From Patescibacteria group bacterium (GTDB lineage Bacteria > Patescibacteriota > Patescibacteriia > UBA9934 > GWF2-40-263): a stretch of DNA of 64,000 nt. Both the position numbers and the translations under genes were made by a program. The DNA is taken from NCBI GenBank assembly GCA_004297215.1, contig SCUM01000001.1, positions 481,181 through 545,180 of the forward strand, in the 5' to 3' direction. Below are positions 3,049 to 26,156 of this stretch, one piece after another (the first letter of the stretch is position 1; the number at the start of each line of letters is the position of its first letter). The notes under the pieces were generated by a model that saw only the letters and a list, made by a program, of their open reading frames with translations, searched no databases and was not told where the DNA came from.

Positions 3049-4344
3049 TTAGGCGAACGTCTTGGGGTGGATAACATCCGTTCCCATCCACTGGCGCAAG
3101 ACGACGGGGACGACGACCGACCCGTCCTTGTGCTGATAATTTTCAAGGATGGCGATCAGGATGCGGCCGATGGCGAACGCGGTGCCGTTGAGCGCATGCG
3201 CGAGCCCCTTCGCCTTCCCAGCCCCCCCTGAGCCTGCCGAAGGGTCCTTGTAGCGGATGTTGAGGCGACGGGTCTGGAAGTCGGTCGTATTGCTCGTGGA
3301 ATGCGTCTCGCGATAGCGGTTCTGCCCCGGCATCCAGGTCTCGATGTCGTACGTGCGGGCGGAGGGAGCCCCGATGTCGCCCGAGCACAGCGCGACCACC
3401 TGGTACGGGAGCTTGAGCCCTTGCATGAGCCGCTCCTGAAGCGACAGGATGAGCGCGTGCTCCGCGTCGGACTCCTCCGGCTTCGTGAAACTGAACATCT
3501 CCACCTTGTCGAACTGATGCATGCGCAGGATCCCCTTCGTGTCCTTGCCGTAGCTGCCAGCCTCACGGCGGTAGCATGGAGAAATGCCCACGTAGCGCAG
3601 CGGAAGGTCCTTCGCGTCCAGCGTCTCGTCCATGAGCATGGGGCCGATTGCCTGTTCGCTGGTGCCGATGAGCACCGCGTCGTCGTTCTTCAGGTGATAC
3701 ACCTCCTCCTCGCCTCCGTGATCGAGGTATCCCATCGCCGCCATGGCCTTGGTGGAAATGATGTGCGGCGGAAGCACGGGGACGAACCCCTCTTTCATGA
3801 GCTCGGAAAGGGCGTACTGCACGAGCGCCAACTCGAGCTGCACCGCGGCGCCGGTGAAATACGCGAATCGCGCTCCGGATACCTTCGCGGCGCGTTCCAC
3901 GTCGATCATCCCGAGCGCGGTCGCGAGCTCCATGTGGTCCTTCGCTTCGAAGTCGAACGTGGTCGGCTCCATGGATGTCCGGAGAACGACATTGCCGGTC
4001 TCGTCCTTCCCCTCCGGGACGTCGGCGCGAAGGATGTTGGGATACATCCGCACCTCACGCGCGAGCTCGGCTTCGATCTGGCCGAGCTCCGCCTCAAGCG
4101 CCTTGGCCGCCTCCTTCACTTCTTTCCCTTCCGCGGCCAGCGCCGGACGGGCCTCGGCGGAGGCCGTGGGAATCGCCTCGGCGATCTCATTCCCTCGGGC
4201 GCGCAGGGCGTCGATCTTGCCGATCTTCTTCGCGCGTTCCGCGGCCAGGCGCGAGGCCATGGACACGTCGATGGGCTTGCCGCGCTTGCGGTTGTTCTCG
4301 GCCACCAGCTCCGGGTTCTCCACGATCAGTTTCGGGTCGATCAT
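3049..4344 (-). CDS. serS: Seryl-tRNA synthetase.
   Basis: Full-length class II aaRS with an N-terminal coiled-coil arm and catalytic core (…GISPCYRREAGSYGKDTKGILRMHQFDKVEMF…). Start taken at MIDPKLIV. The longer ORF-track N-terminus reads through REP palindromes. Confidence 0.9.
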   Translation of the reverse strand: MIDPKLIVENPELVAENNRKRGKPIDVSMASRLAAERAKKIGKIDALRARGNEIAEAIPTASAEARPALAAEGKEVKEAAKALEAELGQIEAELAREVRMYPNILRADVPEGKDETGNVVLRTSMEPTTFDFEAKDHMELATALGMIDVERAAKVSGARFAYFTGAAVQLELALVQYALSELMKEGFVPVLPPHIISTKAMAAMGYLDHGGEEEVYHLKNDDAVLIGTSEQAIGPMLMDETLDAKDLPLRYVGISPCYRREAGSYGKDTKGILRMHQFDKVEMFSFTKPEESDAEHALILSLQERLMQGLKLPYQVVALCSGDIGAPSARTYDIETWMPGQNRYRETHSTSNTTDFQTRRLNIRYKDPSAGSGGAGKAKGLAHALNGTAFAIGRILIAILENYQHKDGSVVVPVVLRQWMGTDVIHPKTFA

Positions 4345-4389
4345 ACGTGGACATCTTGCCGGAGAAGGGGCAGGTTGTCCAAGCCCGAA

Positions 4390-5229
4390 TCCAACACCAG
4401 GTGTTGGATTCGAAGATCGCACCCGTCCAACACCCGGTGTTGGATATTTGACTTTTCAAGGTTTTTCATATAATCTTAACTCAATCTCATTCATGACCCT
4501 CCGGTTTTCGGGGGGTTTTGCTTTTCCAACACCGGGTGTTGGACCAAACTTATGCGCGAGACGTCATTTATGAACGGAGAGTACTATCATGTCTATAACC
4601 GTGGTGTGGACAAGCGCCTCATTTTCCAGGCTGAAAGAGACCGACTGCGCTTCATGAAAGGAATCGTGGCCTTCAATGATGTCGGACGCCATGCTACCAA
4701 GTCGCTCCAACGCATCAGCCCTGTGGTACCGAGCAAAACGCCCTACGTAGAAGTGGTAGCCTACACGCTGCTACCAAACCATTATCATTTTCTTCTTCGC
4801 CAGGTCGCCGATCGTGGCGTCCCTGAATTCATGCGCCGTGTCGGGACTGGGTTCACGAAATACTTCAACCTTCGCTATCAGCGAAATGGCCGGCTATTCC
4901 AATCACCATTCCAGGCAAAACATGTGATGGATGATGGCTACTTGCTCCATCTCTCTCGGTACATTCATCTCAACGTCCTCGATCTTTCATTCCCTGAATG
5001 GCGGGATGCTGGGATTCAAGATTGGCCAGCTGCCATACGCTCGATGCGAGGCTACCTTTGGTCAAGTGCCAAGGATTATCTGGAAGGAACCAAAAGATTC
5101 TATATTCGACCTGATTCCATCCTCGAACAGTTCAAGCTCCCGGACGCATATCCCCGCTTCCTGAAAGACTGGGTCCAACACCCGGTGTTGGACCCGTAGA
5201 TGGTGCCCGTCCAACACCCGGTGTTGGAC
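4390..5229 (+). mobile_element. REP-RAYT unit: a RAYT gene flanked by 3 upstream and 2 downstream REP palindromes.
   Basis: Copies of TCCAACACC(A/C)GGTGTTGGA at 4390-4408, 4425-4444, 4525-4543, 5173-5193 and 5209-5229. The RAYT CDS is about 48% GC versus about 65% in the flanks. Confidence 0.8.
4552..5199 (+). CDS. REP-associated tyrosine transposase (RAYT; IS200/IS605 TnpA-like HUH-Y1 enzyme).
   Basis: HUH motif NHYHFLL and a downstream conserved Tyr region (YIHLN). 215 aa. An alternative start is 4570 (MNGEYYHVYNRG). The C-terminus reads into REP4. Confidence 0.8.
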   Translation: MRETSFMNGEYYHVYNRGVDKRLIFQAERDRLRFMKGIVAFNDVGRHATKSLQRISPVVPSKTPYVEVVAYTLLPNHYHFLLRQVADRGVPEFMRRVGTGFTKYFNLRYQRNGRLFQSPFQAKHVMDDGYLLHLSRYIHLNVLDLSFPEWRDAGIQDWPAAIRSMRGYLWSSAKDYLEGTKRFYIRPDSILEQFKLPDAYPRFLKDWVQHPVLDP

Positions 5230-5392
5230 GGGAGGAAAAAGGCTAACCTTCGCCCCGCTCTTGACATATCCCCATTTTTCTGGCCACCATGGAAGTGCAA
5301 GTGGGCCCACGCGGGCTGGCCCAACGCTCTTTCAAACAGCCCCAGAACCACCCGCCGCTCCCCAAAGGACGACGGGCAGAAAGGAGGGCGCC

Positions 5393-6123: not shown

Positions 6124-9100
6124 TTAAGGCTGCACGATAACGTATCCATTGTAATTGACCCATGGATTATCATCCGGGCAGCCGGTACCACCAGGGCACT
6201 GCAAGGGACGGCACTCATTTTGACTAAGGCCACCCTGACTCTCACCGTCGTAACACTTATCCGATGCATCAACGCCACCGGGACAGACGCCTGTGCAATA
6301 TCCCCAATTATCCTTCACGAACACGCGGGGCTGGAACACGCAGGCGCCGCCGGCCTCTGGCACCTGGCCGCCCGTGCAGGGGGCGTTCAGCAGGCGGCCG
6401 TTATCCGGATCGATGCGGCAGGTGCGACCGGCGGTTTCCAGGTCGGCCACGAGCGTCGCGCTGCAGCGGTAGTCGTGAGAGTAGGATCTGTACGTAGAAT
6501 CGCATGCCCGCGGAGTGAGGCCGAAGTTTGCCGGGCTGCTCCCGCCGCAGATGGGTTCGCCGTCGCGCGTAGCGCCGCGGTGGTTCTTGTAGAAGTTCCC
6601 GTCGTCGGTGGAACCGCTCTGGCTGTCGGTGGGCCAGTCGGCAGGCCCGTTCCCAGGTCCAGGATGTCCGTCGCCCCAGTCCACCACGATGTTCTTGATG
6701 GGCATCTGGTTGGAATTCGCGTACGTATAGAAGCTCACGGCCACGTGCTGCCGGCCGTCGATGCCCTTCACGTTGCCGCCCGCGAGTTCGTTCACCGTGA
6801 AGGTGCCGGGCGACCCTTCTTCGCACGTGCTTCCCTCGCATTTCTCCACGGACGTCACGACGGGGACGGTGCCGGACTTATTCGAAAGGTCCAGATCATC
6901 CGACGTCGGGACGTATGCGCCGCCCGTTTCCCCGTCCGGATCGTCCTCAAAATCGTACTGGAATCGGTTGAACACCTTCGTGAAGAACCGCGAGATGCCG
7001 CTCTGCACGCTCACGCCGAATCCCGTAAGGCCGTTGTCAGGCGTCGGTGCGGCCGGATCGCTGCTCCCGACCGCCGCCAAACCCGCAAGCGTGGCCGACA
7101 CCTCGCCATTTACCGCCTTCCGCTCGTCGCCGCTGCCATCGACCGCATCCAAATCCTCGAACGGCCGCGCGAGCGCGAACGGGAGCATCCCTTCCTTCAG
7201 CGCCGGACCCTGCGCGTACTCCCCTTCGCCTGGATATGTGCGCGCGCCCGCAGAGCAGGCGTCGGCCAATGCGGTCTCGTCCCCGACATTCAAACCGATC
7301 GTGCCTATTCCCCCTCCGGTTCCCGCCCCATCATCGTCCGCGCACACCGGCAGCGGCCAGCTATCGCTCCCGACGACGTTTCGAGCCATCGCGAATTCGC
7401 CCGTATCGGGATCGCGCACGAACATCTCGTCCAGCAATGCGCGGCCGGCCGGGGTGGGGATCGTCTCCGGCCCGTACGGGAACGCTTGCCCGCCGTACGC
7501 GTACGATGACGTGAATCCGCTGTCACTCCAGAGGTTGTCGGTCTGCGCCTTGTTATCGAGCCCCTTGCTGCCGGTGCCTGTGACCTGCACGAGCTCCTGA
7601 CAGGCGTAGTAGGGATAGACGCTTCCGGTGACGAACGGCCCGTCGGACACGCATTCGTTCGCGTCGGAGAGGTCATCCACCGCCGAAGAGCCCAGGCAGA
7701 TTGTCATGCAGATCCCGAAGGATGTCCCGCCCACCACGTACGCGGCCGGGTTGCTCGCACAGCTCGCAAGGCAGTCTGCGAGATTGTCCGTTGCGGCTCC
7801 TGTGCCCTCGATCCGGCAATCATCCTTCACGGCGCAGCGTTTGCCAGTGAGGTCGCAGTGCTTCACCTTCGCGCCCGGGGCGCGATGGGCGATCCCGTAG
7901 GATCCTTGCGGGTCATTTTGCAGTCTTTCGTCATTGTTGTTGTCATCCTTGGGCGTCCCGTTGTCCGTCTGCACCCACCCGTACCCTCCCGGTCCCCACC
8001 CGCGGCCAGGCATCCCGTCGAACGTGCGGATCCAGATCGGGTCATAGCCGGTGCCTGGCGTCATGGGCACGCCGCGCACCGAGCAGTCCGCGAGATATTG
8101 GAAATCCGACACGCTCCCCGGGCCATTTGCGATGTCCCCAAGGCCGTACACAGGCGTCTCGAACACGGACGTACCTAGCTTGGAATAATGCGCGAGGCAA
8201 TCTTCTCCCGGGTTCGCCCCCGCCGCATGGTGAGAATTTTGGGGGATGCAGATGTACGGGCAGTCATCCGTGGGGCGCGTCTCGCTCACGGCTAACGGAT
8301 CAGGGATGCGCGGCTGATCGAAATCCGATGCGTTGTTCCCCGCTTTGCAGAATGTGCCTTTGTCTTTGGTCTCATCCGAACTCCCACCGTTCCCTTTCTC
8401 GTCGCTGTCGCAATAACCAAGCATGGCCACATACCCGTCCGGACAGAACGCGTTGCGGATGCAGCCGGTGTCATCGTTATTTTTTTGCGGAGAGTGGGAA
8501 TCATTCTTTTCCCCGTATGAACCAAAGTCGCAATAGCCGCCTGGCCCGGCTTCCGCATCGGACGCTGCGCACGCATAATCCACGCTCCGTGTATCAGGGT
8601 CGGGCGAAGTCGGAAGGCCTGTCGTAGAATCCAATTGCACGCCCAACGGCCACAAATCCGCATACACCGCCGTCTCCGCGCAGTAGTAGATTTCCCCGGT
8701 GGCGTCGGCCGGGCGCTCGAAGCCAGCTTCGATGGACTTGCCGAACAGGTCGGTGGCGCCGGAGAGCTGGTCCACGGGGAGCCAGGTGAGGCAAGAACGG
8801 TCGCTGGGATCCTGGCTTCCGAACAGCTGGAACGAGGAGTCGCGCTCGAGACAGTACCCTTCCCACCCGAGCAGGGTATCCTCGGCCGTGCGCTTGGAGC
8901 AGCTGCCCGGACGGAATCCGGCGCTCACGGGGTTTTCGGACGTCGGCGGAGTGCCGGAATCGCAATCGGCGTCGTATTCGCATTCCATCCCTTTCTTCTC
9001 CGGGTTGGTGCACACGCCCGTGGGCGGCGCATCGGCGCGATCCGTGCCGTAATACCTGGTGATGGCCCCGTCGCCGTACGTCACCTTCTGGTACGAACAC

Positions 9101-12100
9101 AGGCAGTCGTCGCTCGTCGCCCACCCCGAGCCGGATGCGACGGGGGCGCAGGTGTTGCTGCCGGAAAACTGGGGGATGAACGTAACCGGGGTCGGCGGTT
9201 GGAGATGTTCGCTGTCCCCGGCATTGATGTCAGGGCTATGCACCGAGACGATCTTCCCGGCGTCGAACGGCGAGGTGGGTTCGGGGTATGCGCGGCAAGC
9301 CGTGGACTCGGCGGTGGTGAGCTGAAGCTTGGCAATGCCGGAGACGTCGGTGAGGCAGCTGTCGTTGTAGCAGGCTCCAAGCTTCGCCTTGGCGCTCGAG
9401 ATGCACTGCTGCGTACCGGAACACGCGACGGAACCGTCGGGCGAACAGGTGTCATCGAGCGTCTTCAGCTGGTCCACGCACTTGAGGTCGTCACAGATGC
9501 GGAATCCGCTCGCCGTGCAATCCGCGTCGGTCACGCATCCGGCGTTGTTCGTGGCCTGGCAGAAGCCGAACACGCACGTGTCGTCGCTCACGGAGGAGGA
9601 ACAATCGTTGTCCGTGACGCATCCCGCGTTGGAGTTCTTGCAGAACCCGACGGCGCACGAACCGCCGCGGCCCACGCCGCCCGTTCCCGCTTCTTGGCAG
9701 CTTCCGGCCACGTAGGCGAGGCGGAAATCCTCCGGGGCGTCTTCGCAGGTCGCGTCCGAGGCGCAGTCGTCGTCGGAGGCGCAGGCGATCTCGCGACCGA
9801 CGATCGTGCCCGGAAGGGTGACGCCCAGGTCGAGGATGGGATTGAGATTGACGCCGCGGTTGGGGATATTGATGTTGACGGAGGGGGCGGAACCTTGGGC
9901 CGGGTTGCCGTCCGCATCCACGCACCACCTCCCCGGGTTCACGTTGACTTGCGACAGGAGGTCCATCGAAAGCTGGTTCGGGATGGCGTACCCGGAGTAC
10001 TCGAGCCCGTTCCAGCTCACGTCGCGGCTTGTGTAGACGGCCTCATCGAGCGTGATGGGCTGCGGGTCCACGAACCCGGCGCAGGCGTTGTCGCCGGTGC
10101 CTTGCCCGCGCGTCTCGCACAGCGCCAGGCCGTCGCAGATGGTGCGGAAGGTGGACGTGTTGGGGTCCCAGCTCGCGTGCGAGCTCGCGCACTGCAGCCA
10201 CTCCGCACAGTCGCGGTTGCGGTTCACCTTGATGACGTCGTTCGCGTCGTTCTTGAACGCGGCGTCGATGCTCACGGCGGCCACCGCGGTCCCGTCGCTG
10301 CCCTTGCCCGTGCGCAGGTCCACGCAGGTACCGGAAACGGCGTCGCCGCGGTCGTCTTCGAGCGACGGGCAGTCCGAGTCCACGAGGCAGGAACCGGCGT
10401 ACTCGGCGGCGGCATCGGCCGTGGACGTGTCAGAATTCCCCACGGCGAGGTCGCGATCCGCGCCCACGGGATAGCGGCACCGACGGCTGCACAGCGCCTG
10501 CGGGTCCGGAAGGCCGGCGAGATTCGCGAGGTCGTACCCGGCGGAGGTCGCGGGGCAAGACACCGGGTCGCGCAGGTCGAACGGGCGGCCGCCGAACAGC
10601 ACGTCGGCATGCTCGGAGGCCACGTAGCTTGGACCGGACGCGAACTTGAGCGACGGGTCGGTGACATTGCGGAACACGGCGCAGCCGAGCTTCTGGCTCA
10701 CCTGGCCTTCGCAGCGTTCGCTGCCGGTAGCGGTATCGGAGAGCGCATCATTATCGAGGAAGGTGTACTGCACCCCCTGCGGATACGCGCCGTGGTCGGT
10801 GTCGGACGGGTCCACGAACGCGGTGCACAGGTCGTACTGGGAGCCGCACTCCCCCACCCAGCCTTCGTAGCCGGCGTCGCCGTTGCGCCGTATGCCGAAC
10901 GTGTTGCCGCTGATCACGACGTCCTCGTCGCACGGGACGATCGTCCCCTTCACGAACCATCCCGAGGCGTTCTGGCCGCCCACCCTGATGTCGGTCTTGA
11001 ACTCGCAGCGCTGGTCGAGGGGATCCTTGAAGTAGAAGTTGCCGTCCTTGGTGGAGGAGAACTCCTGGCAGAACAGGTCCTCGTGCCCGCACAGCACCTG
11101 GTCGTACGTGTCCGGGTCGTCGATCACGAACGCGCTCGTAAACGAGGTGACCGCGGTCTTGTCCTGATTGAACTTGGGAGTGCCCACTTCGGTGCAGCCC
11201 ACGGCGGCCACGGAACACTGGTCGGAGCCGTCGTCCACGAGATAGAGCGGGGAGTCGTTGTACACGACGCGCGCCTCCGGGCCCATCGTCACGTTTGGCG
11301 TCCCCGGGGGGATCACGCCGTCAGCATCGAACAGGCAGAATCTCTTTCCCGGAGCGATCTGGCATGCCGTGCGGCCCTGCACCGCGCACGGGGTGAGGAC
11401 GGACACGGCCGCGCCACCCGTCGCGACGCAACGCGCGTTAAAGGTCTGGCCGTACTCCGACTCCGACGCATGCGTGTCGAAGAACGCTTCGCAGCCCACC
11501 GCCTGCTCGCTGCACAGCCGGCCGAAGCGGTAGAACTCGTCGGTCGCGCCTGCGCGATCCGTGTACGCTTCGCAGCCGAGATAGAACTGCGGCGCGTTCT
11601 GGCCGTTGGGGGCCGTGTCGCAGGAGGCCGGGGTTACCCAGGAATCCTTGATGAGCGCGAGCGTGTCGTCGGCCATGGTGACCCGGACGTTATCCAGGAA
11701 GAACTCGGTGCCGCCGCTCACGGCCGTGAACTGCAGGGCGGACTGGTCGTCGAACCCGTCGATCGTGGAGGAATCGATGGGGCCGAGGGAGTACGGCCGC
11801 CAGTCCGTGGTGAGGTCGGCTGGGACGTCCGAAATCGGGGAGGGCGTTCCATCGACGGGGCGGAACGCCACGTTCACGTCGCCGGTGCCACGCGCGAAGA
11901 AACTCACGGTAAACGTCCTCCCAGGGACGACGTTCCCCACAAACGGGCTCACGCTCCCTTCAAGGGTGGAAGCCCCTGCCCCGGCGGCGGCGTTGCTCAC
12001 GCGCAGCGAATGCCCGCCCGCGGAAACCGCGTCGTTGCTCACCGCGACCGTGGCGCTCCCCTGCGCGGTCCAGTCGGTCGCGCCGTTTTCCTCGAACGTC

Positions 12101-15100
12101 TCCTCAAGCACGGTGGCCACGTTGCGGCCCCCGCCGCCGGTGTAGGCGCGGCACCCCGCGGCAGAGGCGGGACATGAGCGCGATCGCGACGGCAGGCCGA
12201 AGTAATGGCATTCGCCGGAAGCGGTGAAGAACCCGCCCGTGACGAAACAGGTGTCCCGCGCCGCGGCGGGGTCGGAAACGAGCTGGGTCTTGCGGTACGG
12301 GTGGCAGCTCTCGTCCACGAACACCGTCTCGCTGAAGCGGCGGTAGTGGATGTCCCCGTCGCCGTCGTAGAATTCGCCGCAGTCGAGATCGGTGATGGTG
12401 TCGGAGTGCTCGTCGCACGCGGCGTCCGCGCGCGTCGCCGGATCCGCGTCGTCGCACCTGATCGAATTCGGGTCGTCCATCACCGTGGCCGTGCACGGCG
12501 CGTCGTCGCGATTGGACTTGAGCAGCTGCGTCGGGCGCAGCTGGAACCCCTGCGCCTGCGTGCCGGTCCAGGTGAAATAGGTGACGCGATCCGCCCCGGC
12601 TTGGACGGGGGTGGTGCACGCGCGCAAATCGGTGTAGTGCTCCACCGCTTCCCCGCCCGCGGCGAGCGTATCGAGGTTCGTGAACGCATCGCAGCCGACG
12701 TTTGCCTCGGAACAGGCCTGTGCGGTCGTCGGGATGAAATTCACCGGGAACGCGGAGGCCTCGTACTTGGTTTCCTCCTGCTTGAACGCGGCGTACCCCA
12801 CGCACGCGGCCGGGCAGCGGTCGATGTCGGAGGCGACGGCCGAGACGGACGGGTCGCCGTCCTCGGGCCGGTAACGCTCGCACCCGACGTCCACGGCCGC
12901 GCACACGGGCGCGAAGCCGGCGCATTCCTTGGGATCCGTGGGCAATCCGCGGCAGTCGAGGTAGCTCGGCGGAACCTTGAGCGAGGCGACGGCCGCGTCC
13001 ACGTTGCCGGCATACCCGTCGGTGAACGGCGTGGCGTTTTCTCCCCGTTCAAGTTGCACCGAGTCGAGCGTTGCGCCGGACGGGGCGCTGAACGAGACGC
13101 TCGCGAGCGCGTTTGCGGGGAGGCTGAACGTGCAGGTCGTCGCGGCGTACGCCGCCGAAAGATTCGGCGCGGCCTGCACCTGGTTGCGCGGGGCAGCGGC
13201 GCCGATCACGGCGCACCCGCGCGTGGAGACATTGGTGAGGTCGATCGCGACGCCGGCAAGGGTGGTGAGCGTGACCGTCCCGACGGCCGTGCCGCTCCCC
13301 TTCGCCTCAAAGCTCAAGGTATAGAAGGAATCCTTGGACAAGAACACGCCGGATTGCGAAATCGTCCCATTCGTCCCGGATCCGATCCCCACGGCATCGG
13401 ACCCCTGATCGGCGCCGAGCGCATCGGAGTACGTGACGGCCGATCCGAGCTGCCAGCCTTCGACGACGGGCGGGCTCCCGGCCGTGCCGCGCTCGAAGCT
13501 CCCGTTCTGCAACAGGTTGAAGGTGACGTTTTCCGCGCGAAGCAGCCCGGCGCATCCGGCATCGTTGCCGTTGCAGGACTTCACGTCATTGTTGAAATAC
13601 GCGCGATCCCTGAACGCGTCCTGGGCGGCGTCCTTGGCGGCGACCACGTACGTTTGGCCGGCGGGGAGGAACTCGAACGTGTCATCGGCCGTGTCCGACG
13701 CGGTCCCGTGCGTATCCGGGAACTTGTTCACCCTGGACCACAGGCAGCCGGCGTTCCCGGAGTTGCAGCCGGCGAAATCCACGGTGTTGAGCAGGAACCC
13801 GTTGCGCTGGTTCGTCTGCGTGTTCTGGAGCGCCAGGCACCCGGCGAAGTCGGCCGGACAGGCGTCGCCGCGGAACTGCCAGACGTTCTTCTCGCGCACG
13901 CAGTAGCCGAACCCGCCCGTGCACTCGCCGTCGGCGTTCTCGGACAGGCAGCTCGGGGTGTCTGCGCACACCGGGGCGCGCGCGCCGGAGTTCGCCGCCG
14001 CGAGCGTCTCGCCGTTCACGAACGCGCGGCACTGGGTGTCGGGATACTTGAGGATCCAATTTGGATCGATGAGGTGGCACCAGCGGTGCATGTCGTCGGC
14101 GGTCCCTGCGGCATTGCAGTCGTCAAACCCGGCGATCACGTCCTCGAGCTTCACCGTCTCGTTGGGCTTCACCTTCCCCGCCGCCATCTCCCAGCCGATG
14201 GGGAGGATGCGCGCCTTGCGCAGCTTCACCAGATTGCCGAAACAATAGGCGCTGTCCTTGCACAGGATGTCCTGGTTCTTGGGGTCGTCGGGTCGCACGA
14301 GCGGCCAATCCTTGTGGATGAACCGCTCCTCGATCGCCTGCGCGACCGTGAGCGGATTGTCCGTGGCTCCGCGCGAGACCGCTTGGAAGAACGGCTGGTC
14401 GATGACGCAATGGTTGGGTCCGCGCATGACCACCCCGCCCGTGGGACAGGTGATGAATTCGCCGAGGATGTTGTAGTTGTCGACCGACGTGGGCGTGACC
14501 GCGATCAGCTTGGAGAAGTGCTCCTGGGCCTGCTCGCGCGCGTTGCTGACCACGGCAAGCGAATCGAACGGATTGCTCGGGAGCTCCGGGGCCGGGAAGA
14601 AACCCTCGTAAAGCTGCTGCGTCCATTTGGAGCCGAGGGTGCTCGTGAACACGCCCACCGTATGCCAGAGCATCCCCCACCAGAACTGCGGGTTGGCCGC
14701 GATGAGCGCCGCCACCCGCTCCTGCTTCTTCTCGTCCTTGCCCACGTTGGCGTGCAGGAAATCCTCGCGCAGGAGGACGGCGGGGGTCTTTATCTGGCCG
14801 GTCACCACGTCGGTGACGTCCTTGAATCCGCCGTTGAACTCCCGGTCGAGCAGGTCGAGGGTGCGCTTCTTGTTGTATTCCTCGCGCGTGGAGAAGGCGA
14901 GGTCGATGGACATGGACAGCTCGTTCTGGCCCGGTCGCAGCCCCTGCGCAAACGCGGCGAGCACGGGGCCGGTGGGATCCTTGGCGAGTTCCGCGGCCGA
15001 AGAAAGGAAGCTATTCCAGTTCTTGCCAATGGAAAGGAAATCGCATTTGGGCTTCTGTACCGTGTAAGATGCCTTGATGCCCAACGAGAGCGCAAGCTTG

Positions 15101-15627
15101 AAACCGTCCGTAAGCAGGCCTGGGTTGCAGATGTCGAACTTGAAGCCGGTGAGCTCGCCGAACCCGGTGTTCAGGAAATCCATGGACCCCCCCACGATGT
15201 CGAGGCCGATCGGATTGTTCCCGGAATCGAGCGGGTCGAACACGTGGTAGAGCGGCTGGTCGCCCTTTCCGCCGCTTGCCACGAACAGGGCGGACTCGTA
15301 CGCGAGGCGATCGAGCACGAACGACATGAAATCGAACAGGGCGAACACGATGTTCGCCTCTACGATCGGCTTGAGCATCCCCTTGTCCACGGTCTCGATG
15401 GAGGCCGCCGCATGTTCCGCGATGCACCCCTCGCTGTTACCGGCAACGACAGGACAAGGGACGGCTTTCAGCGCCGCCTCCGTTGCGGGCACGGCCGGAC
15501 TGGACGCGCTTTCATCCGCATGCGCAGGAACGGCAAGGAAGAACCCGATGATCGAGACCGAACATACGATCGCGACCGCCCCGGCGACCCATCGGCTCAA
15601 CGCTGGAATGCCTCCCGTTCTACGCAT
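6124..15627 (-). CDS. Giant secreted Cys-rich surface protein (3167 aa).
   Basis: Single 9.5-kb ORF with cleavable signal MRRTGGIPALSRWVAGAVAIVCSVSIIGFFLAVPAHA. More than 150 Cys. Repeated modules such as GFCKNSNAGCVTDNDC / GFCQATNNAGCVTDADC. All overlapping opposite-strand ORFs are Arg/Pro-rich shadows. Confidence 0.85.
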   Translation of the reverse strand: MRRTGGIPALSRWVAGAVAIVCSVSIIGFFLAVPAHADESASSPAVPATEAALKAVPCPVVAGNSEGCIAEHAAASIETVDKGMLKPIVEANIVFALFDFMSFVLDRLAYESALFVASGGKGDQPLYHVFDPLDSGNNPIGLDIVGGSMDFLNTGFGELTGFKFDICNPGLLTDGFKLALSLGIKASYTVQKPKCDFLSIGKNWNSFLSSAAELAKDPTGPVLAAFAQGLRPGQNELSMSIDLAFSTREEYNKKRTLDLLDREFNGGFKDVTDVVTGQIKTPAVLLREDFLHANVGKDEKKQERVAALIAANPQFWWGMLWHTVGVFTSTLGSKWTQQLYEGFFPAPELPSNPFDSLAVVSNAREQAQEHFSKLIAVTPTSVDNYNILGEFITCPTGGVVMRGPNHCVIDQPFFQAVSRGATDNPLTVAQAIEERFIHKDWPLVRPDDPKNQDILCKDSAYCFGNLVKLRKARILPIGWEMAAGKVKPNETVKLEDVIAGFDDCNAAGTADDMHRWCHLIDPNWILKYPDTQCRAFVNGETLAAANSGARAPVCADTPSCLSENADGECTGGFGYCVREKNVWQFRGDACPADFAGCLALQNTQTNQRNGFLLNTVDFAGCNSGNAGCLWSRVNKFPDTHGTASDTADDTFEFLPAGQTYVVAAKDAAQDAFRDRAYFNNDVKSCNGNDAGCAGLLRAENVTFNLLQNGSFERGTAGSPPVVEGWQLGSAVTYSDALGADQGSDAVGIGSGTNGTISQSGVFLSKDSFYTLSFEAKGSGTAVGTVTLTTLAGVAIDLTNVSTRGCAVIGAAAPRNQVQAAPNLSAAYAATTCTFSLPANALASVSFSAPSGATLDSVQLERGENATPFTDGYAGNVDAAVASLKVPPSYLDCRGLPTDPKECAGFAPVCAAVDVGCERYRPEDGDPSVSAVASDIDRCPAACVGYAAFKQEETKYEASAFPVNFIPTTAQACSEANVGCDAFTNLDTLAAGGEAVEHYTDLRACTTPVQAGADRVTYFTWTGTQAQGFQLRPTQLLKSNRDDAPCTATVMDDPNSIRCDDADPATRADAACDEHSDTITDLDCGEFYDGDGDIHYRRFSETVFVDESCHPYRKTQLVSDPAAARDTCFVTGGFFTASGECHYFGLPSRSRSCPASAAGCRAYTGGGGRNVATVLEETFEENGATDWTAQGSATVAVSNDAVSAGGHSLRVSNAAAGAGASTLEGSVSPFVGNVVPGRTFTVSFFARGTGDVNVAFRPVDGTPSPISDVPADLTTDWRPYSLGPIDSSTIDGFDDQSALQFTAVSGGTEFFLDNVRVTMADDTLALIKDSWVTPASCDTAPNGQNAPQFYLGCEAYTDRAGATDEFYRFGRLCSEQAVGCEAFFDTHASESEYGQTFNARCVATGGAAVSVLTPCAVQGRTACQIAPGKRFCLFDADGVIPPGTPNVTMGPEARVVYNDSPLYLVDDGSDQCSVAAVGCTEVGTPKFNQDKTAVTSFTSAFVIDDPDTYDQVLCGHEDLFCQEFSSTKDGNFYFKDPLDQRCEFKTDIRVGGQNASGWFVKGTIVPCDEDVVISGNTFGIRRNGDAGYEGWVGECGSQYDLCTAFVDPSDTDHGAYPQGVQYTFLDNDALSDTATGSERCEGQVSQKLGCAVFRNVTDPSLKFASGPSYVASEHADVLFGGRPFDLRDPVSCPATSAGYDLANLAGLPDPQALCSRRCRYPVGADRDLAVGNSDTSTADAAAEYAGSCLVDSDCPSLEDDRGDAVSGTCVDLRTGKGSDGTAVAAVSIDAAFKNDANDVIKVNRNRDCAEWLQCASSHASWDPNTSTFRTICDGLALCETRGQGTGDNACAGFVDPQPITLDEAVYTSRDVSWNGLEYSGYAIPNQLSMDLLSQVNVNPGRWCVDADGNPAQGSAPSVNINIPNRGVNLNPILDLGVTLPGTIVGREIACASDDDCASDATCEDAPEDFRLAYVAGSCQEAGTGGVGRGGSCAVGFCKNSNAGCVTDNDCSSSVSDDTCVFGFCQATNNAGCVTDADCTASGFRICDDLKCVDQLKTLDDTCSPDGSVACSGTQQCISSAKAKLGACYNDSCLTDVSGIAKLQLTTAESTACRAYPEPTSPFDAGKIVSVHSPDINAGDSEHLQPPTPVTFIPQFSGSNTCAPVASGSGWATSDDCLCSYQKVTYGDGAITRYYGTDRADAPPTGVCTNPEKKGMECEYDADCDSGTPPTSENPVSAGFRPGSCSKRTAEDTLLGWEGYCLERDSSFQLFGSQDPSDRSCLTWLPVDQLSGATDLFGKSIEAGFERPADATGEIYYCAETAVYADLWPLGVQLDSTTGLPTSPDPDTRSVDYACAASDAEAGPGGYCDFGSYGEKNDSHSPQKNNDDTGCIRNAFCPDGYVAMLGYCDSDEKGNGGSSDETKDKGTFCKAGNNASDFDQPRIPDPLAVSETRPTDDCPYICIPQNSHHAAGANPGEDCLAHYSKLGTSVFETPVYGLGDIANGPGSVSDFQYLADCSVRGVPMTPGTGYDPIWIRTFDGMPGRGWGPGGYGWVQTDNGTPKDDNNNDERLQNDPQGSYGIAHRAPGAKVKHCDLTGKRCAVKDDCRIEGTGAATDNLADCLASCASNPAAYVVGGTSFGICMTICLGSSAVDDLSDANECVSDGPFVTGSVYPYYACQELVQVTGTGSKGLDNKAQTDNLWSDSGFTSSYAYGGQAFPYGPETIPTPAGRALLDEMFVRDPDTGEFAMARNVVGSDSWPLPVCADDDGAGTGGGIGTIGLNVGDETALADACSAGARTYPGEGEYAQGPALKEGMLPFALARPFEDLDAVDGSGDERKAVNGEVSATLAGLAAVGSSDPAAPTPDNGLTGFGVSVQSGISRFFTKVFNRFQYDFEDDPDGETGGAYVPTSDDLDLSNKSGTVPVVTSVEKCEGSTCEEGSPGTFTVNELAGGNVKGIDGRQHVAVSFYTYANSNQMPIKNIVVDWGDGHPGPGNGPADWPTDSQSGSTDDGNFYKNHRGATRDGEPICGGSSPANFGLTPRACDSTYRSYSHDYRCSATLVADLETAGRTCRIDPDNGRLLNAPCTGGQVPEAGGACVFQPRVFVKDNWGYCTGVCPGGVDASDKCYDGESQGGLSQNECRPLQCPGGTGCPDDNPWVNYNGYVIVQP

Positions 15628-23210: not shown

Positions 23211-24482
23211 TCAACCTTTCCCCCGTACGACCGAGGCGCCCGCCACGGCGGCGAGCGACAGCCCGGCCCAGAGGCTCCACAGGTAATGGTCGAACAGGCC
23301 AAGGGTGATGAGCAAGACGGTTCCGGAGAGGGCAAAGACGCGTTCGGAGCGGACGTGGATTCCGTTCACCGCCTTCCATCCGCGACGCAAGAACGGAAGG
23401 GAGGCGAACAATCCTACGAGGCCCACCTCGACGAGATACAAGAGGAATGCGTTATGGACCGGCTGATATTCGTACGCCGGCGCGCCGGGTCGGAACGTGG
23501 AAAGCGCGAGGGTGTAGAGCGACGGGCCCACTCCGGTGACCGGGCTGATCGCAAAGGCCTCGGGAGCCTCTCGGTACGAAGCCGAACGCTCGGCGAGCGA
23601 ACGGGCCTCGAGGCGCGCGCCGGGAGTGAAGCGCGTAAAAAGCTGGGTGTGGAACACGAGCATGGTGATGACGAGCGCCAGCAGCGATGCCCAGATGAGC
23701 GGCAGCCCGGCGTGCGCGCGAAGGCGGCCGTGCCACATGAGCGCCGCGACCACGAACCCGAGCGAAAGCGCCGCGGCAAGCCAGGCACCGCGTGAGAAGG
23801 TGATGACGAGCGTCGCGGCGAGGAGCATGGCGGGCAACGCGAGATGGTGTCGGCGCGCGTGGTCGCGCAAACGCGACGCGAGGACGGCCAGGGCCCAAAG
23901 CCCGACAGCCAAAAATCCACCGAACACGTTCGGATGCGGGAACGGGCCGTAGGCGCGCAGCGTGCGCTCCCCTGCCGCCGACTCGACGACCGACTGCCCG
24001 AGCGTCGCGGCATCATGACCGGCAAGCCCGAGCCATTTCTGCGGGAATGACGAGCCGGCAATGACCTGGTCCCAGCCGAGCAACGCCGCGGGGATGAGCC
24101 CGACGACGAATGCCGTGAGCGCCTGCGTCGCGTCCGTGCGTTCGTCGAGCAGGAGCAGGAACAGGAGCGCGGCCATGGCGGCATGGAAGGTGGCGCCTAG
24201 CGCGACCGCGGGGATGGGCGTGAAGACGGACGAGAACGCGCAGGCGAGGAGGATCCACGAGAGCGGGATCGCGAATCGCGACCTGTCGCCGAGCCGAAGA
24301 CGGCCGTAGAGCGCGGCGGAGGCGAGCACGAGCAGCTCCGCGGCGTAGAGGGAGACGGTGCCGTACTCCCAGGGGAGACCGTCCATCTTTCCGGATACGA
24401 CGATCCAACGCGTCTGCCAAGGAAGCAGCACGAGGGCGAGCAGGAGGGCGAAGCGCCCGAGGCGTTCACGCGTCATAGGCAT
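23211..24482 (-). CDS. O-antigen ligase family membrane protein (Wzy_C/RfaL-like).
   Basis: At least 10 predicted TM helices. Motifs GPFPHPNVFGGFL, ITFSRGAWLA and PVHNAFLLYLVEVGLVGL are typical of O-antigen polymerase/ligase domains. Confidence 0.7.
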   Translation of the reverse strand: MPMTRERLGRFALLLALVLLPWQTRWIVVSGKMDGLPWEYGTVSLYAAELLVLASAALYGRLRLGDRSRFAIPLSWILLACAFSSVFTPIPAVALGATFHAAMAALLFLLLLDERTDATQALTAFVVGLIPAALLGWDQVIAGSSFPQKWLGLAGHDAATLGQSVVESAAGERTLRAYGPFPHPNVFGGFLAVGLWALAVLASRLRDHARRHHLALPAMLLAATLVITFSRGAWLAAALSLGFVVAALMWHGRLRAHAGLPLIWASLLALVITMLVFHTQLFTRFTPGARLEARSLAERSASYREAPEAFAISPVTGVGPSLYTLALSTFRPGAPAYEYQPVHNAFLLYLVEVGLVGLFASLPFLRRGWKAVNGIHVRSERVFALSGTVLLITLGLFDHYLWSLWAGLSLAAVAGASVVRGKG

Positions 24483-25422
24483 AGGTCCGGCAAAGGGCCA
24501 TCCATCGGTCGCGGTATTCCGCACGGCGGTCGTTTTCGTGGAACTTGAGCATCTCGTCGTTCACCACCACGCGGGAGTCGCGGTTCATGAGGGTGCGCAG
24601 GGAGTGCGGGAGGCGGCGGAGTTGGATCCAGCGGGCCAGACGCTCGACATGTCCACCACGTCCAACACCCGGTGTTGGACGTGTCGTTTCCTTAGGAAAA
24701 CCAGGGTTCTCAAGATCTCGATTTTCAAAATCGCCAGGTTTTTTACAAAAACTGGAATTCCCAACACCAGGTGTTGGGTCCTGTGAACGGACATCTCCGT
24801 ACACCGTCCGCAGCGACCGGATCCACACCTCCAGATACGGATCCCCTCCCGGCAAAGCGAGCGTCTCGAGGGCGGGCGCGGCCGTGGACGCGAAGAAGCT
24901 GAAGCAGAACGGGTCGCGCGCGCCGTCTTCGGGCCTCTGGCGCAGGATCGCGAATGGCGTGACGCACATGAGCCGCGCGGTCCAGGTAAGCCCCGGCATC
25001 GTGCGTACGAACAGGTCGATGTCGCTCTCCGGCCGCGTATGCATGAACGCGAGCGTGTTCGCGGCCGCGACGGCGCGCACGCCCGGGACACGACGAAGGA
25101 ATCGGACGGCGCGGCGAAGGGCACGCATCTTGCGCAGCGCGTCACGACGACGCGCGTGGCGCGTACGCGCGAGCGCCACGGCGTCAGTGCCCGGAAGCGC
25201 ATGGAAGCCGTCCTTAGACGGGTATCCCCCGCCCCGTAGCGCGGCATCGACCTCGTCGAGGGACGGCTTCTCGCCCGTGACGAACAACCATTTCCAGGTC
25301 TCGAACGCCGTGGGGGCGTAGTCAAAAAGCGAAAACCAAGCGAGGGTCCGGAGAATGGCCTTGTGGAGCGCTTCGTCCATAAACGCAAAGGATGCCCGTC
25401 TGGGGCATCCTACATGCTTCAT
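24466..25422 (-). CDS. Hypothetical protein (possible minimal nucleotidyltransferase-like motif) that contains an in-frame REP doublet.
   Basis: A 318-aa ORF reads through two REP palindromes (translated PTPGVG…PTPGVG). TRPESDIDLFV resembles an NTase hG[GS]…DxD motif. Overlaps the ligase start by about 17 nt. Confidence 0.45.
   Translation of the reverse strand: MKHVGCPRRASFAFMDEALHKAILRTLAWFSLFDYAPTAFETWKWLFVTGEKPSLDEVDAALRGGGYPSKDGFHALPGTDAVALARTRHARRRDALRKMRALRRAVRFLRRVPGVRAVAAANTLAFMHTRPESDIDLFVRTMPGLTWTARLMCVTPFAILRQRPEDGARDPFCFSFFASTAAPALETLALPGGDPYLEVWIRSLRTVYGDVRSQDPTPGVGNSSFCKKPGDFENRDLENPGFPKETTRPTPGVGRGGHVERLARWIQLRRLPHSLRTLMNRDSRVVVNDEMLKFHENDRRAEYRDRWMALCRTYAYDA
24660..24778. 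repeat. REP doublet with an AT-rich spacer (BIME-like), located inside an ORF.
   Basis: gtccaacacccggtgttggac (24660-24680) and cccaacaccaggtgttggg (24760-24778) flank an 80-bp low-GC spacer. Confidence 0.75.
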
Positions 25423-26156
25423 CCGATGACCTCCACTGCGGCTGGTTTCTTCTTCCGGAACGCGACCATCTGCTGTCCGATCGACACCAGCGTGTTCGTG
25501 ATCCAGTACAGGAGCAATCCGGCCGGCAACCCGGCGCCGATCACGGCGGTCATCACCGGCATGGTGTACTGCATGGACTTGTTCATGGCCGCCAGCATGT
25601 CCTCGTCCTTGGCCCCTTCCGGCACGGGCTTCTTGACTCGGGTCGCCGTGAGCATCCGCATCTGGGCGAAGGTGGCGAGTCCGGTGACGAGCGCGAGCGG
25701 GACGTTCTTCTTGGTAAGGTCGAGGATGCCGAGGAAGGTCTCGTTGATTCCCCCTGGATTGGGCACGAAGGAGTACAGGTTTGAGAACCCTTCGGTCGTG
25801 AGGCCGGACTGGAGCACGGCATACAGGGCGAACAGCACCGGCAGCTGCACGAGCACCGGCAGGCAGGAGGAAAGCGGGTTCACCTTCTCGCTCGCGTACA
25901 ACGCGATCACCGCCTTGCCGAACGCGTCCTTATCGGCCCCGTGAGCCGCCTTGAGCGCGTCGATCTTGGGCTGCAACTCCTGCAGCGCTTTCTGGGACAA
26001 CAGGGAGGAGTGGTTGAGCGGCCAGAACACGAGCTTCACGAGGATGGTGAGCGCGATAATCGCGAGCCCCATGTCGTGCCCGGGAATGATGTCGTACAGC
26101 CCGATCAACAGGTTGTAGAGCGGCTGATAAAGGACGGCGTGCAAGAGACCTCCCAT
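25419..26156 (-). CDS. yidC: Membrane protein insertase YidC (short form).
   Basis: 245 aa with 5 TM helices and conserved YidC/Oxa1 segments (LLQSGLTTEGFSNLYSF…, AGLLLYWITNTLVSIGQQ). Confidence 0.85.
   Translation of the reverse strand: MGGLLHAVLYQPLYNLLIGLYDIIPGHDMGLAIIALTILVKLVFWPLNHSSLLSQKALQELQPKIDALKAAHGADKDAFGKAVIALYASEKVNPLSSCLPVLVQLPVLFALYAVLQSGLTTEGFSNLYSFVPNPGGINETFLGILDLTKKNVPLALVTGLATFAQMRMLTATRVKKPVPEGAKDEDMLAAMNKSMQYTMPVMTAVIGAGLPAGLLLYWITNTLVSIGQQMVAFRKKKPAAVEVIG

What the first reader, a model, noticed from the sequence alone, without database searches (positions are those of the whole stretch)
24466..25422. REP doublet embedded in frame within a protein-coding ORF upstream of the O-antigen ligase
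The 318-aa ORF reads through gtccaacacccggtgttggac, an 80-bp AT-rich spacer and cccaacaccaggtgttggg without a stop. The translated protein therefore contains …PTPGVG-(24 aa)-PTPGVG…. Either a BIME-like REP doublet has inserted in frame into a gene, a second case in this window of repeats colonising coding sequence, or it marks a junction between two genes fused by the ORF caller.
Basis: seen in the sequence. Interest (0 to 1): 0.55.

Follow-up and report, generated by a model that had tools for sequence, protein, structure and literature searches.

The report
Mobile palindrome pair inside a gene
A 120-base pair of mobile DNA hairpins (REPs), served by a transposase gene 20 kb away, sits in frame in a flexible loop of an otherwise intact gene of a tiny-genome (CPR) bacterium; this kind of event is already known in other bacteria.

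Summary
Two perfect palindromes (core CCAACACCNGGTGTTGG, at 24662-24678 and 24761-24777) lie 99 bp apart around an AT-rich 82-nt spacer, inside an uninterrupted minus-strand ORF.

This is a REP doublet inserted in frame into a single gene.
- The same palindrome flanks a RAYT-like Y1 transposase gene at 4570-5199.
- Three syntenic orthologues (nusA-yidC-X-wzy) are single genes of 261-289 aa without the element.
- Removing the 40 inserted codons restores the 12-aa linker length of the nearest relatives.
- Third-position GC is 0.22 in the insert against about 0.80 in the flanks.
- An AlphaFold model is confident everywhere except the insert.
- No in-frame start codon follows the REPs.

The real CDS is probably 304 aa (24466-25380), not 318.

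Beyond the finding, the REP core is widespread in CPR bacteria. It is inserted in frame in a glutamyl-tRNA synthetase gene, adding 8 aa compared with 11 close orthologues. Two loops of gene X carry REP-like palindromes in five other relatives.

In-frame REPs and Rickettsia RPEs are already published, so this is a new member of a known kind. RAYT-driven mobilisation and retained protein function are inferred, not shown.

The parts
24466..25380 (-). Host gene X. The likely CDS is 304 aa; the mechanical ORF extends to 25422 (318 aa). It is a conserved Uhrbacteria protein with a nucleotidyltransferase-like fold and no Pfam or NCBIfam family.
   Evidence: ORF. The exact protein P0001 and more than 120 homologues are. 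The AF2 model has pLDDT 87.9 and pTM 0.84. Foldseek gives weak MNT/AadA/KNT hits, best E 8e-3. No family was found.
24660..24779 (-). The 120-bp (40-codon) segment absent from orthologues: REP, 82-nt spacer, REP. It is translated as DPTPGVGNSSFCKKPGDFENRDLENPGFPKETTRPTPGVG. The boundaries are uncertain by a few bases.
   Evidence: Protein and DNA alignments with orthologues are. GC3 is 0.225 against 0.82 and 0.78 in the flanks. The pLDDT<50 stretch (residues 202-229; 10-residue block means 42-51 over 201-240) falls within the insert.
24657..24683 (.). REP copy 1, a 27-nt perfect palindrome CACGTCCAACACCCGGTGTTGGACGTG (core 24662-24678).
24679..24760 (.). AT-rich 82-nt spacer containing three small hairpins. 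It is unique, with no other copy found.
   Evidence: The ssDNA fold has z = -5.7. No other copy occurs in the window or in 126 loci. It is not significantly similar to the RAYT-upstream spacers or to the orthologue linkers.
24760..24778 (.). REP copy 2, a 19-nt palindrome CCCAACACCAGGTGTTGGG (core 24761-24777).
4570..5199 (+). RAYT-like Y1 (HUH) tyrosine transposase gene (the ORF as listed starts at 4552). It is the presumed mobilising enzyme of this REP family.
   Evidence: Pfam Y1_Tnp E 5.9e-4. NCBIfam REP_Tyr_transpos E 4.8e-8. The profile's best PDB hit is 4ER8, E. coli TnpA-REP. The HUH motif (NHYHF) and the Tyr (RYIHLN) are conserved across 6 homologues.
4386..4543 (.). Three REPs on the 5' side of the RAYT gene: 4386-4412, 4426-4444 and 4525-4543. 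The last two are separated by an AT-rich spacer of the same 82-nt length as in the intragenic doublet.
5171..5232 (.). Two REPs on the 3' side of the RAYT gene: 5171-5195 and 5206-5232. This pair is homologous to the 4386-4444 pair, including the 19-nt linker.
23211..24524 (-). Downstream neighbour, a Wzy_C / O-antigen-ligase-family gene. It overlaps the 3' end of gene X by 59 bp.
25419..26156 (-). Upstream neighbour, yidC (60KD_IMP).

Best explanation
A non-autonomous REP doublet (two copies of the palindrome CCAACACCNGGTGTTGG around an AT-rich 82-nt spacer, 120 bp in all) has inserted into the variable linker of a single conserved gene. The doublet belongs to the REP family whose copies flank the RAYT-like Y1 transposase gene at 4570-5199.

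Gene X sits in the order nusA-yidC-X-wzy and encodes a protein with a nucleotidyltransferase-like fold. The gene stays open for three reasons:
- The palindrome core has no stop codon in any of the six frames.
- The element is exactly 40 codons long.
- Its spacer happens to be open in the gene's frame.

The predicted product is the normal fold plus a roughly 40-aa disordered surface loop bracketed by two PTPGVG motifs.

Shown here: the REPs match those at the RAYT gene, the element is absent from single-gene orthologues, it is in frame and free of stops, its composition is foreign to the gene, and it lies in a loop that tolerates insertions and deletions.

Inferred only: that the RAYT mobilised it (by single-strand, hairpin-directed cut and paste, as in IS200/IS605 and TnpA-REP), that ribosomes read through it, and that the protein still works.
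For: - REP identity: there are 7 perfect cores against 0.01 expected, and 5 of them flank the Y1 transposase ORF.
- Transposase identity: the HUH motif and the catalytic Tyr are conserved, and the best solved-structure match is E. coli TnpA-REP, 4ER8.
- Transposase history: a metagenome relative (L126) has the same serS-RAYT synteny and the same REP architecture. RAYT identity is 44% and SerRS identity 46%, which fits a vertically inherited RAYT.
- Single gene: orthologues P0002-P0004 are single 261-289-aa genes in the same synteny, without REPs.
- Linker length: the window linker minus 40 aa is 12 aa, the same as in P0004.
- Intact C-terminus: the invariant C-terminal residues are retained.
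- Foreign composition: GC3 is 0.225 in the insert against about 0.80 in the flanks. The composition resembles that of the RAYT cassette, which has GC 0.51 and a spacer at 0.35.
- Structure: the AF2 model has pLDDT 87.9, and its only stretch below pLDDT 50 (residues 202-229) lies inside the insert at residues 201-241.
- No split gene: there is no internal start codon after the REPs.
- Open frames: 4 of 6 frames are open through the element.
- Independent precedents: an 8-aa in-frame REP insertion in a CPR GluRS compared with 11 orthologues at 65-91% identity; REP-like doublets or singles in two loops of gene X in four other Uhrbacteria; and a different palindrome family in the same linker in L124 and L125.
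Against: - Only one genome carries this allele, and no empty-site allele of the same species was found.
- The exact protein is not in the contig collection, so the age of the insertion and its polymorphism are unknown.
- The 82-nt spacer is unique. The doublet is therefore not shown to be a replicating REPIN population.
- No target-site signature is visible.
- Only 64 kb of an 842-kb genome could be read, and within it just one REP locus lies away from the RAYT gene.
- The RAYT scores fall below the curated family cut-offs.
- An insertion that is in frame and stop-free by chance is not very rare: about 1/3 x 0.13.
- Nothing shows that the gene is expressed or that the protein functions.
Confidence: 0.8

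Rival explanations
1. The insertion inactivated gene X. The ORF is still open only because the event is recent and happened to be in frame, so this is a young pseudogene.
For: The REP cores are perfect and the insert's GC3 has not drifted towards the host value, so the event may be recent. The chance that a random insertion is in frame and stop-free is a few percent, not negligible. There are no expression data.
Against: The insertion lies exactly in the one region of the family that varies from 12 to more than 50 aa. Both conserved blocks are intact, with all invariant residues. The model folds confidently around the insert. Other family members and a GluRS carry comparable in-frame REPs. NCBI annotates it as an intact CDS.
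Confidence: 0.1
2. The palindromes were written into the gene by gene conversion or templated repair from the REPs at the RAYT locus, or they are inherited remnants of an old insertion kept uniform by conversion. On this view there was no recent transposition of a 120-bp unit.
For: Some intragenic REP-like sequences show no net length change. The MnmA case in L055 matches PDB homologues in length. The copy at aa 68 of P0007 matches P0005 and P0006 in length. The spacer is unique and the same linker holds other palindromes in relatives.
Against: The window allele is 40 codons longer than its nearest orthologues, and the whole segment, not just the cores, has foreign composition. The GluRS case is a clean +8-aa insertion.
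Confidence: 0.07
3. Two adjacent genes with an intergenic REP doublet have been fused by the ORF caller.
For: REPs are normally intergenic. The AT-rich spacer looks non-coding.
Against: Orthologues are single genes. The N- and C-terminal blocks form one fold with pTM 0.84. There is no in-frame start codon or ribosome-binding site between the REPs and codon 279, no stop codon before the REPs, and no promoter-like site in the insert.
Confidence: 0.01
4. The doublet is an assembly artefact of the metagenome-assembled genome, a chimeric join through repeats.
For: The source is a MAG, and REPs are repeats that can mislead assemblers.
Against: Both flanks belong to the same gene, in the same frame, in conserved synteny. 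The spacer occurs nowhere else in the window. The contig is 842 kb long.
Confidence: 0.02

Closest known systems
Intragenic REPs of the GTAG/CGTC super-families (Di Nocera et al. 2013, PMC3733652)
   Same: These are short palindromic REPs, often as dimers encoding 20-30 aa or more. They are found entirely within ORFs of known proteins, including tRNA synthetases, and the authors argue they sit in flexible linkers or loops. GTAG REPs are associated with RAYT genes.
   Different: The host here is a CPR (Uhrbacteria) genome. The stem is a perfect 8-13-bp palindrome with a 1-nt centre, and there is no unpaired GTAG or CGTC tag. CGTC does precede 3 of the 7 copies, but it is base-paired there. The core is conserved across CPR lineages whose RAYTs are only 31-45% identical.
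Rickettsia palindromic elements (RPEs; summarised in PMC10969869)
   Same: RPEs are palindromic elements of about 100-150 bp inserted in frame into unrelated genes of a small, gene-dense genome. They add a peptide segment judged compatible with the protein fold.
   Different: RPEs have no known dedicated transposase, occur in many copies, and encode a conserved peptide. Here a cognate RAYT is present, only the PTPGVG ends are conserved, and the spacer is unique. Sequence relatedness to RPEs was not tested.
REPIN-RAYT systems of Pseudomonas and E. coli, and BIMEs (PMC8049555 and references therein)
   Same: Two REPs form a doublet that can fold into one long hairpin. The RAYT gene is flanked by REPs and is apparently vertically inherited.
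   Different: Classical REPINs and BIMEs are extragenic, occur in many copies, and have conserved spacers and GTAG tags. This doublet is intragenic, its spacer is unique, and each REP is self-complementary, so it has no intrinsic orientation.
PATE/MITE derivatives of IS200/IS605 (my own knowledge, not checked here)
   Same: These are short non-autonomous units bounded by the hairpins that a Y1 transposase recognises, and they make no target-site duplication.
   Different: The ends here are the REPs themselves, and no autonomous multi-copy IS is evident.

Membership tests
REP/RAYT system (REPtron) | A Y1 HUH transposase with an HUH motif and a catalytic tyrosine | tested here: met
   NHYHF and RYIHLN are conserved in 6 homologues. 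NCBIfam REP_Tyr_transpos gives E 4.8e-8 and Pfam Y1_Tnp gives E 5.9e-4, both below the curated cut-offs. The profile's best PDB hit is 4ER8, TnpA-REP, at E 1.7e-3, with HUH and Tyr aligned.
REP/RAYT system (REPtron) | The transposase gene is flanked on both sides by the REP palindromes | tested here: met
   There are 3 REPs on the 5' side and 2 on the 3' side of ORF 4552-5199. The same is seen in L126 and L005.
REP/RAYT system (REPtron) | The same REPs are dispersed at many other genomic sites | tested here: inconclusive
   Only one locus away from the RAYT (24657-24778) was found in the 64 kb available. The other 780 kb of the genome could not be read.
REP/RAYT system (REPtron) | The RAYT is a single-copy, vertically inherited gene | tested here: inconclusive
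   The serS-RAYT synteny is conserved in L126, and RAYT divergence (44% identity) matches SerRS divergence (46%). Copy number in the genome is not testable. GC3 of the RAYT is atypical in both genomes.
REP/RAYT system (REPtron) | A conserved unpaired GTAG (or CGTC) tetranucleotide at one end of the REP | tested here: inconclusive
   No GTAG adjoins the stems. CGTC precedes 3 of the 7 copies but is base-paired with GACG.
REPIN | Two REPs in inverted orientation that can form one long hairpin | tested here: met
   The RNA fold pairs the two REPs in an 18-bp stem, with z = -4.6. As ssDNA each REP folds on its own, with z = -5.7.
REPIN | The whole doublet exists as a population of near-identical copies | tested here: not met
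   The spacer has no second copy in the window or in the 126 loci held at that point. A metagenome scan for doublets with a 70-100-nt gap found only the RAYT-proximal doublet of L126. The rest of the genome is unseen.
BIME (enterobacterial) | Alternating Y and Z REP types with a GTAG tag and defined linker motifs | tested here: not met
   The sequence shows no GTAG tag. The two REPs differ only in the central base and in the outer stem.
Rickettsia palindromic elements (RPE) | A palindromic element of about 100-150 bp inserted in frame in a pre-existing ORF | tested here: met
   120 bp, 40 codons, absent from orthologues.
Rickettsia palindromic elements (RPE) | Sequence belongs to one of the RPE families and encodes their conserved peptide | not tested
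   No RPE consensus sequences were available to compare. The host phylum differs.
MITE | Terminal inverted repeats plus a target-site duplication | tested here: inconclusive
   The ends are inverted repeats (the REPs). No duplication is visible, and the orthologue linkers are too diverged to define the exact junctions.

The most novel reading that the evidence does not exclude
This REP family, with its vertically inherited RAYT, may be a CPR-wide generator of in-frame loop and linker insertions.

The case rests on four points:
- The core has no stop codon in any of the six frames.
- The core is conserved across CPR lineages, and a compensatory variant CCAACCCCNGGGGTTGG also exists.
- The outer stem varies between copies but remains paired (covaries).
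- In gene-dense CPR genomes the family appears inside genes, including essential ones: GluRS, and probably MiaA, Fmt, DprA and MnmA. It also appears repeatedly in the same two loops of gene X.

That would make it a transposase-linked counterpart of the Rickettsia RPEs. It would also imply that the elements have been selected for compatibility with coding sequence.
Probability: 0.3. Interest if true: 0.6.

Novelty: new member of a known kind. Interest (0 to 1): 0.4.

Why it matters
This is a clean, checkable example of a mobile hairpin element becoming part of a protein without destroying the gene. It comes from the Candidate Phyla Radiation, a group for which I found no published description of REP/RAYT systems.

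The cognate transposase and the intragenic copy lie in the same window. The case therefore links in-frame palindromic insertions to a RAYT, whereas the Rickettsia RPEs have no known enzyme.

If the wider pattern holds, REPs would be a recurrent source of variation in loop length in the streamlined proteomes of CPR bacteria. That wider pattern is the same core across CPR lineages, insertion into a tRNA synthetase gene, and repeated hits in two loops of one gene family.

There is also a practical consequence. Annotation pipelines and structure predictions for CPR proteins should expect 'PTPGVG'-type segments that derive from REPs.

Tried and rejected
- Spacer origin. I compared the intragenic 82-nt spacer with three candidate relatives and found no significant similarity to any. 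These were the equally long RAYT-upstream spacer of the window, the L126 spacer (best p = 0.017, in one orientation only), and the linkers of orthologues P0002-P0004.
- Other copies of the element. blastn-short against the window and all loci found nothing. A metagenome scan for doublets with a 70-100-nt gap found only L126, which is a RAYT-proximal doublet.
- Source genome. The exact protein P0001 is not on record in the contig collection. A whole-genome REP census was therefore impossible.
- Promoter or terminator role. No promoter-like site lies in the insert. The only terminator-like match at the insert is on the strand opposite to the gene.
- Known RNA family. Rfam gave only a sub-threshold chance hit.
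- Phage link. The core occurs in only 8 viral contigs, once in each.
- Stop-codon depletion. Four of six frames are open, which only 0.3% of spacer shuffles reach. I do not lean on this, because internal hairpins make the two strands non-independent.
- Controls. The palindrome hits in HisRS (L115) and PBP1A (L112) have no palindromic flank extension and look like native coding sequence, so they were not counted as REPs.
Full report
OBSERVATION

The minus-strand ORF 24466-25422 (318 aa) reads without a stop through two perfect palindromes. The first is CACGTCCAACACCCGGTGTTGGACGTG at 24657-24683. The second is CCCAACACCAGGTGTTGGG at 24760-24778.

The 17-nt cores are 99 bp apart, with 82 nt between them. 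That spacer has GC 0.39 in a window of GC 0.65. The core CCAACACCNGGTGTTGG occurs 7 times in the window, against 0.01 expected, and none of 100 shuffles reached that number. No degenerate copies appear at up to 3 mismatches.

Two details need correcting. The PTPGVG motifs are 27 aa apart, not 24. The probable CDS starts at 25380 and is 304 aa, as in the NCBI protein P0001 and in the orthologues. The 14 upstream codons of the longer ORF cover a terminator-like hairpin that follows the yidC stop codon.

WHAT THE PALINDROMES ARE

The other five copies flank ORF 4552-5199 (+), three on its 5' side and two on its 3' side. This ORF is a Y1 HUH transposase of the RAYT type.
- Pfam Y1_Tnp gives E 5.9e-4 and NCBIfam 'REP-associated tyrosine transposase' gives E 4.8e-8. 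Both are below the curated cut-offs.
- An alignment with five homologues keeps the HUH motif (NHYHF) and the tyrosine motif (RYIHLN).
- A profile of these six sequences finds E. coli TnpA-REP (4ER8) as its best solved-structure match, with both motifs aligned.

A metagenome contig, L126, has the same layout: serS next to a RAYT homologue, with REP-20-REP-78-REP upstream of the RAYT. RAYT identity is 44% and SerRS identity 46%. This fits a vertically inherited, domesticated RAYT as described in the literature (PMC8049555).

The RAYT cassette is compositionally atypical in both genomes. GC3 is 0.57-0.59 in the RAYT against 0.81-0.86 in serS, and the cassette's non-coding spacer has GC 0.35.

IS IT ONE GENE?

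Yes.
- More than 120 homologues, mostly Candidatus Uhrbacteria, align over both the N-terminal and the C-terminal blocks.
- The three closest (P0002, P0003 and P0004, at 57-70% identity) were located on contigs. Each is one uninterrupted gene of 261-289 aa in the same order, nusA-yidC-X-Wzy_C-...-groES, and none contains a REP.
- The family has a linker of very variable length between the two blocks. The window linker minus the 40 REP-derived residues is 12 aa, the same length as in P0004.
- All invariant C-terminal residues are present.
- After the REPs there is no in-frame start codon until codon 279, inside the conserved block.
- An AlphaFold2 model built from 115 sequences has pLDDT 87.9 and pTM 0.84. 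The N- and C-terminal blocks form one domain arrangement. The only stretch below pLDDT 50 is residues 202-229, with 10-residue block means of 42-51 over 201-240; it lies inside the insert, which occupies residues 201-241.
- Foldseek gives only weak matches, to minimal nucleotidyltransferases and to AadA and KNT (best E 8e-3). The host protein is therefore best described as a protein of unknown function with a nucleotidyltransferase-like fold.

THE INSERT

The inserted segment is 120 bp, or 40 codons, and is absent from the orthologues at the DNA level. Its GC3 is 0.225, against 0.82 upstream and 0.78 downstream. It is therefore foreign to the gene, and it resembles the non-coding part of the RAYT cassette in composition.

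The palindrome core has no stop codon in any of the six frames. This follows directly from the sequence, whose three reading frames give PTPGVG, QHxVL and NTxCW. The whole element is open in 4 of 6 frames. With a shuffled spacer, the gene's frame stays open in 13% of trials and 4 or more frames in 0.3%. Internal hairpins make the two strands non-independent, so I give this little weight.

As ssDNA the element folds into five hairpins (z = -5.7). As RNA the two REPs can pair with each other (z = -4.6). The spacer has no second copy anywhere I could look, and it is not demonstrably related to the RAYT-upstream spacers or to the orthologue linkers. No promoter-like site, sense-strand terminator or Rfam family lies in it.

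MECHANISM

The best-supported reading is that a REP doublet of the RAYT's own family inserted into a permissive linker. Because it is a stop-free multiple of three, the gene remained intact. The product should carry an extra disordered loop.

That the RAYT moved the doublet is inferred by analogy with TnpA-REP and IS200/IS605 single-strand transposition. Translation through the element and retained protein function are likewise inferred.

The rivals are as follows:
- A young pseudogene (about 0.1).
- Conversion or templated repair rather than transposition (about 0.07). This is suggested by intragenic REP-like sequences with no net length change, in MnmA of L055 and at aa 68 of P0007.
- An assembly artefact (about 0.02).
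- Two fused genes (refuted).

WIDER CONTEXT FOUND ALONG THE WAY

In the CPR copies the flanks extend the palindrome by 3.7 bp on average, and by up to 12 bp, using different sequences in different copies. In the non-CPR hits the mean extension is 0.97 bp. RAYT homologues at 31-35% identity lie in four of these loci, and directly between two REPs in L005.

Several CPR copies lie inside housekeeping ORFs.
- The clearest case is a glutamyl-tRNA synthetase (L111, P0121). It carries 'LNWPTPGV' as a clean +8-aa insertion relative to 11 orthologues at 65-91% identity.
- MiaA shows +5 aa compared with solved homologues.
- The DprA copy lies between that protein's two Pfam domains.

Gene X is hit repeatedly.
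- P0027, P0039 and P0043 carry in-frame doublets in an N-terminal loop. Their core variant is CCAACCCCNGGGGTTGG, a compensatory change at the paired positions 6 and 12 of the window core. Their relative P0020 lacks these doublets.
- P0007 has copies at aa 68 and in the same linker as the window insert.
- In P0002 and P0003, a different palindrome, GAGGTTWAACCTC, occupies the start of that linker. The same palindrome recurs as an intergenic doublet on the P0003 contig.
- In all of these loci, the REP-like cores occur only in gene X.

COMPARISON WITH WHAT IS KNOWN

Intragenic REPs are documented for Proteobacteria, Opitutus and Rickettsia (PMC3733652). That work describes dimers encoding 20-30 aa or more, including cases in tRNA synthetase genes, and argues that they sit in flexible linkers. 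In-frame Rickettsia palindromic elements are a classic case (PMC10969869).

The present case works like these. It meets the core REP/RAYT criteria, namely the transposase motifs and REPs flanking the gene. It lacks a GTAG or unpaired CGTC tag. It is not shown to be a replicating REPIN population.

Three full-text searches found no description of REP/RAYT systems or intragenic REPs in CPR/Patescibacteria.

VERDICT

This is a new member of a known kind, of moderate interest. The wider pattern across CPR bacteria deserves a genome-scale census.

Noticed in passing
window 4386-5232: A complete RAYT cassette lies next to serS, with the layout REP-19-REP-82-REP-RAYT-REP-19-REP. The 5' and 3' REP pairs are homologous in direct orientation, including their 19-nt linkers (GAAGATCGCACCCG and GTAGATGGTGCCCG). 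The cassette has GC 0.51 in a genome of GC 0.65. Both the 82-nt upstream spacer and its L126 counterpart contain CATATAATC followed by a hairpin and a T-run.
   Followed up: partly
window 3049-4422 (-): The listed 457-aa serS ORF begins inside the REPs (MRSSNPTPGVGFG...). This is an artefact of mechanical ORF extension. The SerRS homology starts at MIDPKLIV (4344), as in L126.
   Followed up: partly
L001-L120 (genome-contig scan): The 17-nt REP core is strongly over-represented in CPR lineages (Paceibacterota, Andersen-, Shapiro-, Zambryski-, Nealson-, Nomura-, Saccharibacteria and others). Their RAYTs are only 31-35% identical to the window's. The outer stem differs between copies but stays paired. 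A few non-CPR hits (Omnitrophota L006, Planctomycetia L012 and L099, Riflebacteria L021) also have extended stems.
   Followed up: partly
L111 3426-3442 (GluRS, P0121); also L075 (MiaA), L076 (Fmt), L037 (DprA), L055 (MnmA), L106 (Lnt C-terminus): The same REP palindrome lies in frame inside housekeeping genes of other CPR genomes. GluRS is a clean +8-aa insertion relative to 11 close orthologues. MnmA shows no net length change compared with solved homologues, which is unexplained and could be insertion plus deletion or conversion.
   Followed up: partly
L128 1383/1427, L129 3554/3601, L130 384/452, L127 4083/4531: Orthologues of gene X in other Uhrbacteria carry in-frame REP-like doublets in an N-terminal loop, and in L127 also in the linker. 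Their core variant is CCAACCCCNGGGGTTGG, a compensatory change at the paired positions 6 and 12 of the window core. In these loci the cores occur only in gene X.
   Followed up: partly
L124 2933 and 2979; L125 2579, 4875 and 4891: A second, unrelated palindrome family (GAGGTTWAACCTC) occupies the start of the same gene-X linker in P0002 and P0003. It also occurs as an intergenic doublet upstream of groES in L125. The linker therefore seems to be a hot spot for more than one hairpin repeat.
   Followed up: partly
window 25389-25411 (-): A terminator-like hairpin (AGGATGCCCCAGACGGGCATCCT followed by a T-rich tail) lies between the yidC stop codon and the probable start of gene X. It sits inside the 14-codon extension of the 318-aa ORF. 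The ATG at 25422 overlaps the yidC stop codon (ATGA).
   Followed up: partly
window 6124-15627 (-): A 3167-aa ORF, Cys- and Gly-rich and resembling a giant secreted or surface protein, appeared in the ORF list near the RAYT cassette.
   Followed up: no
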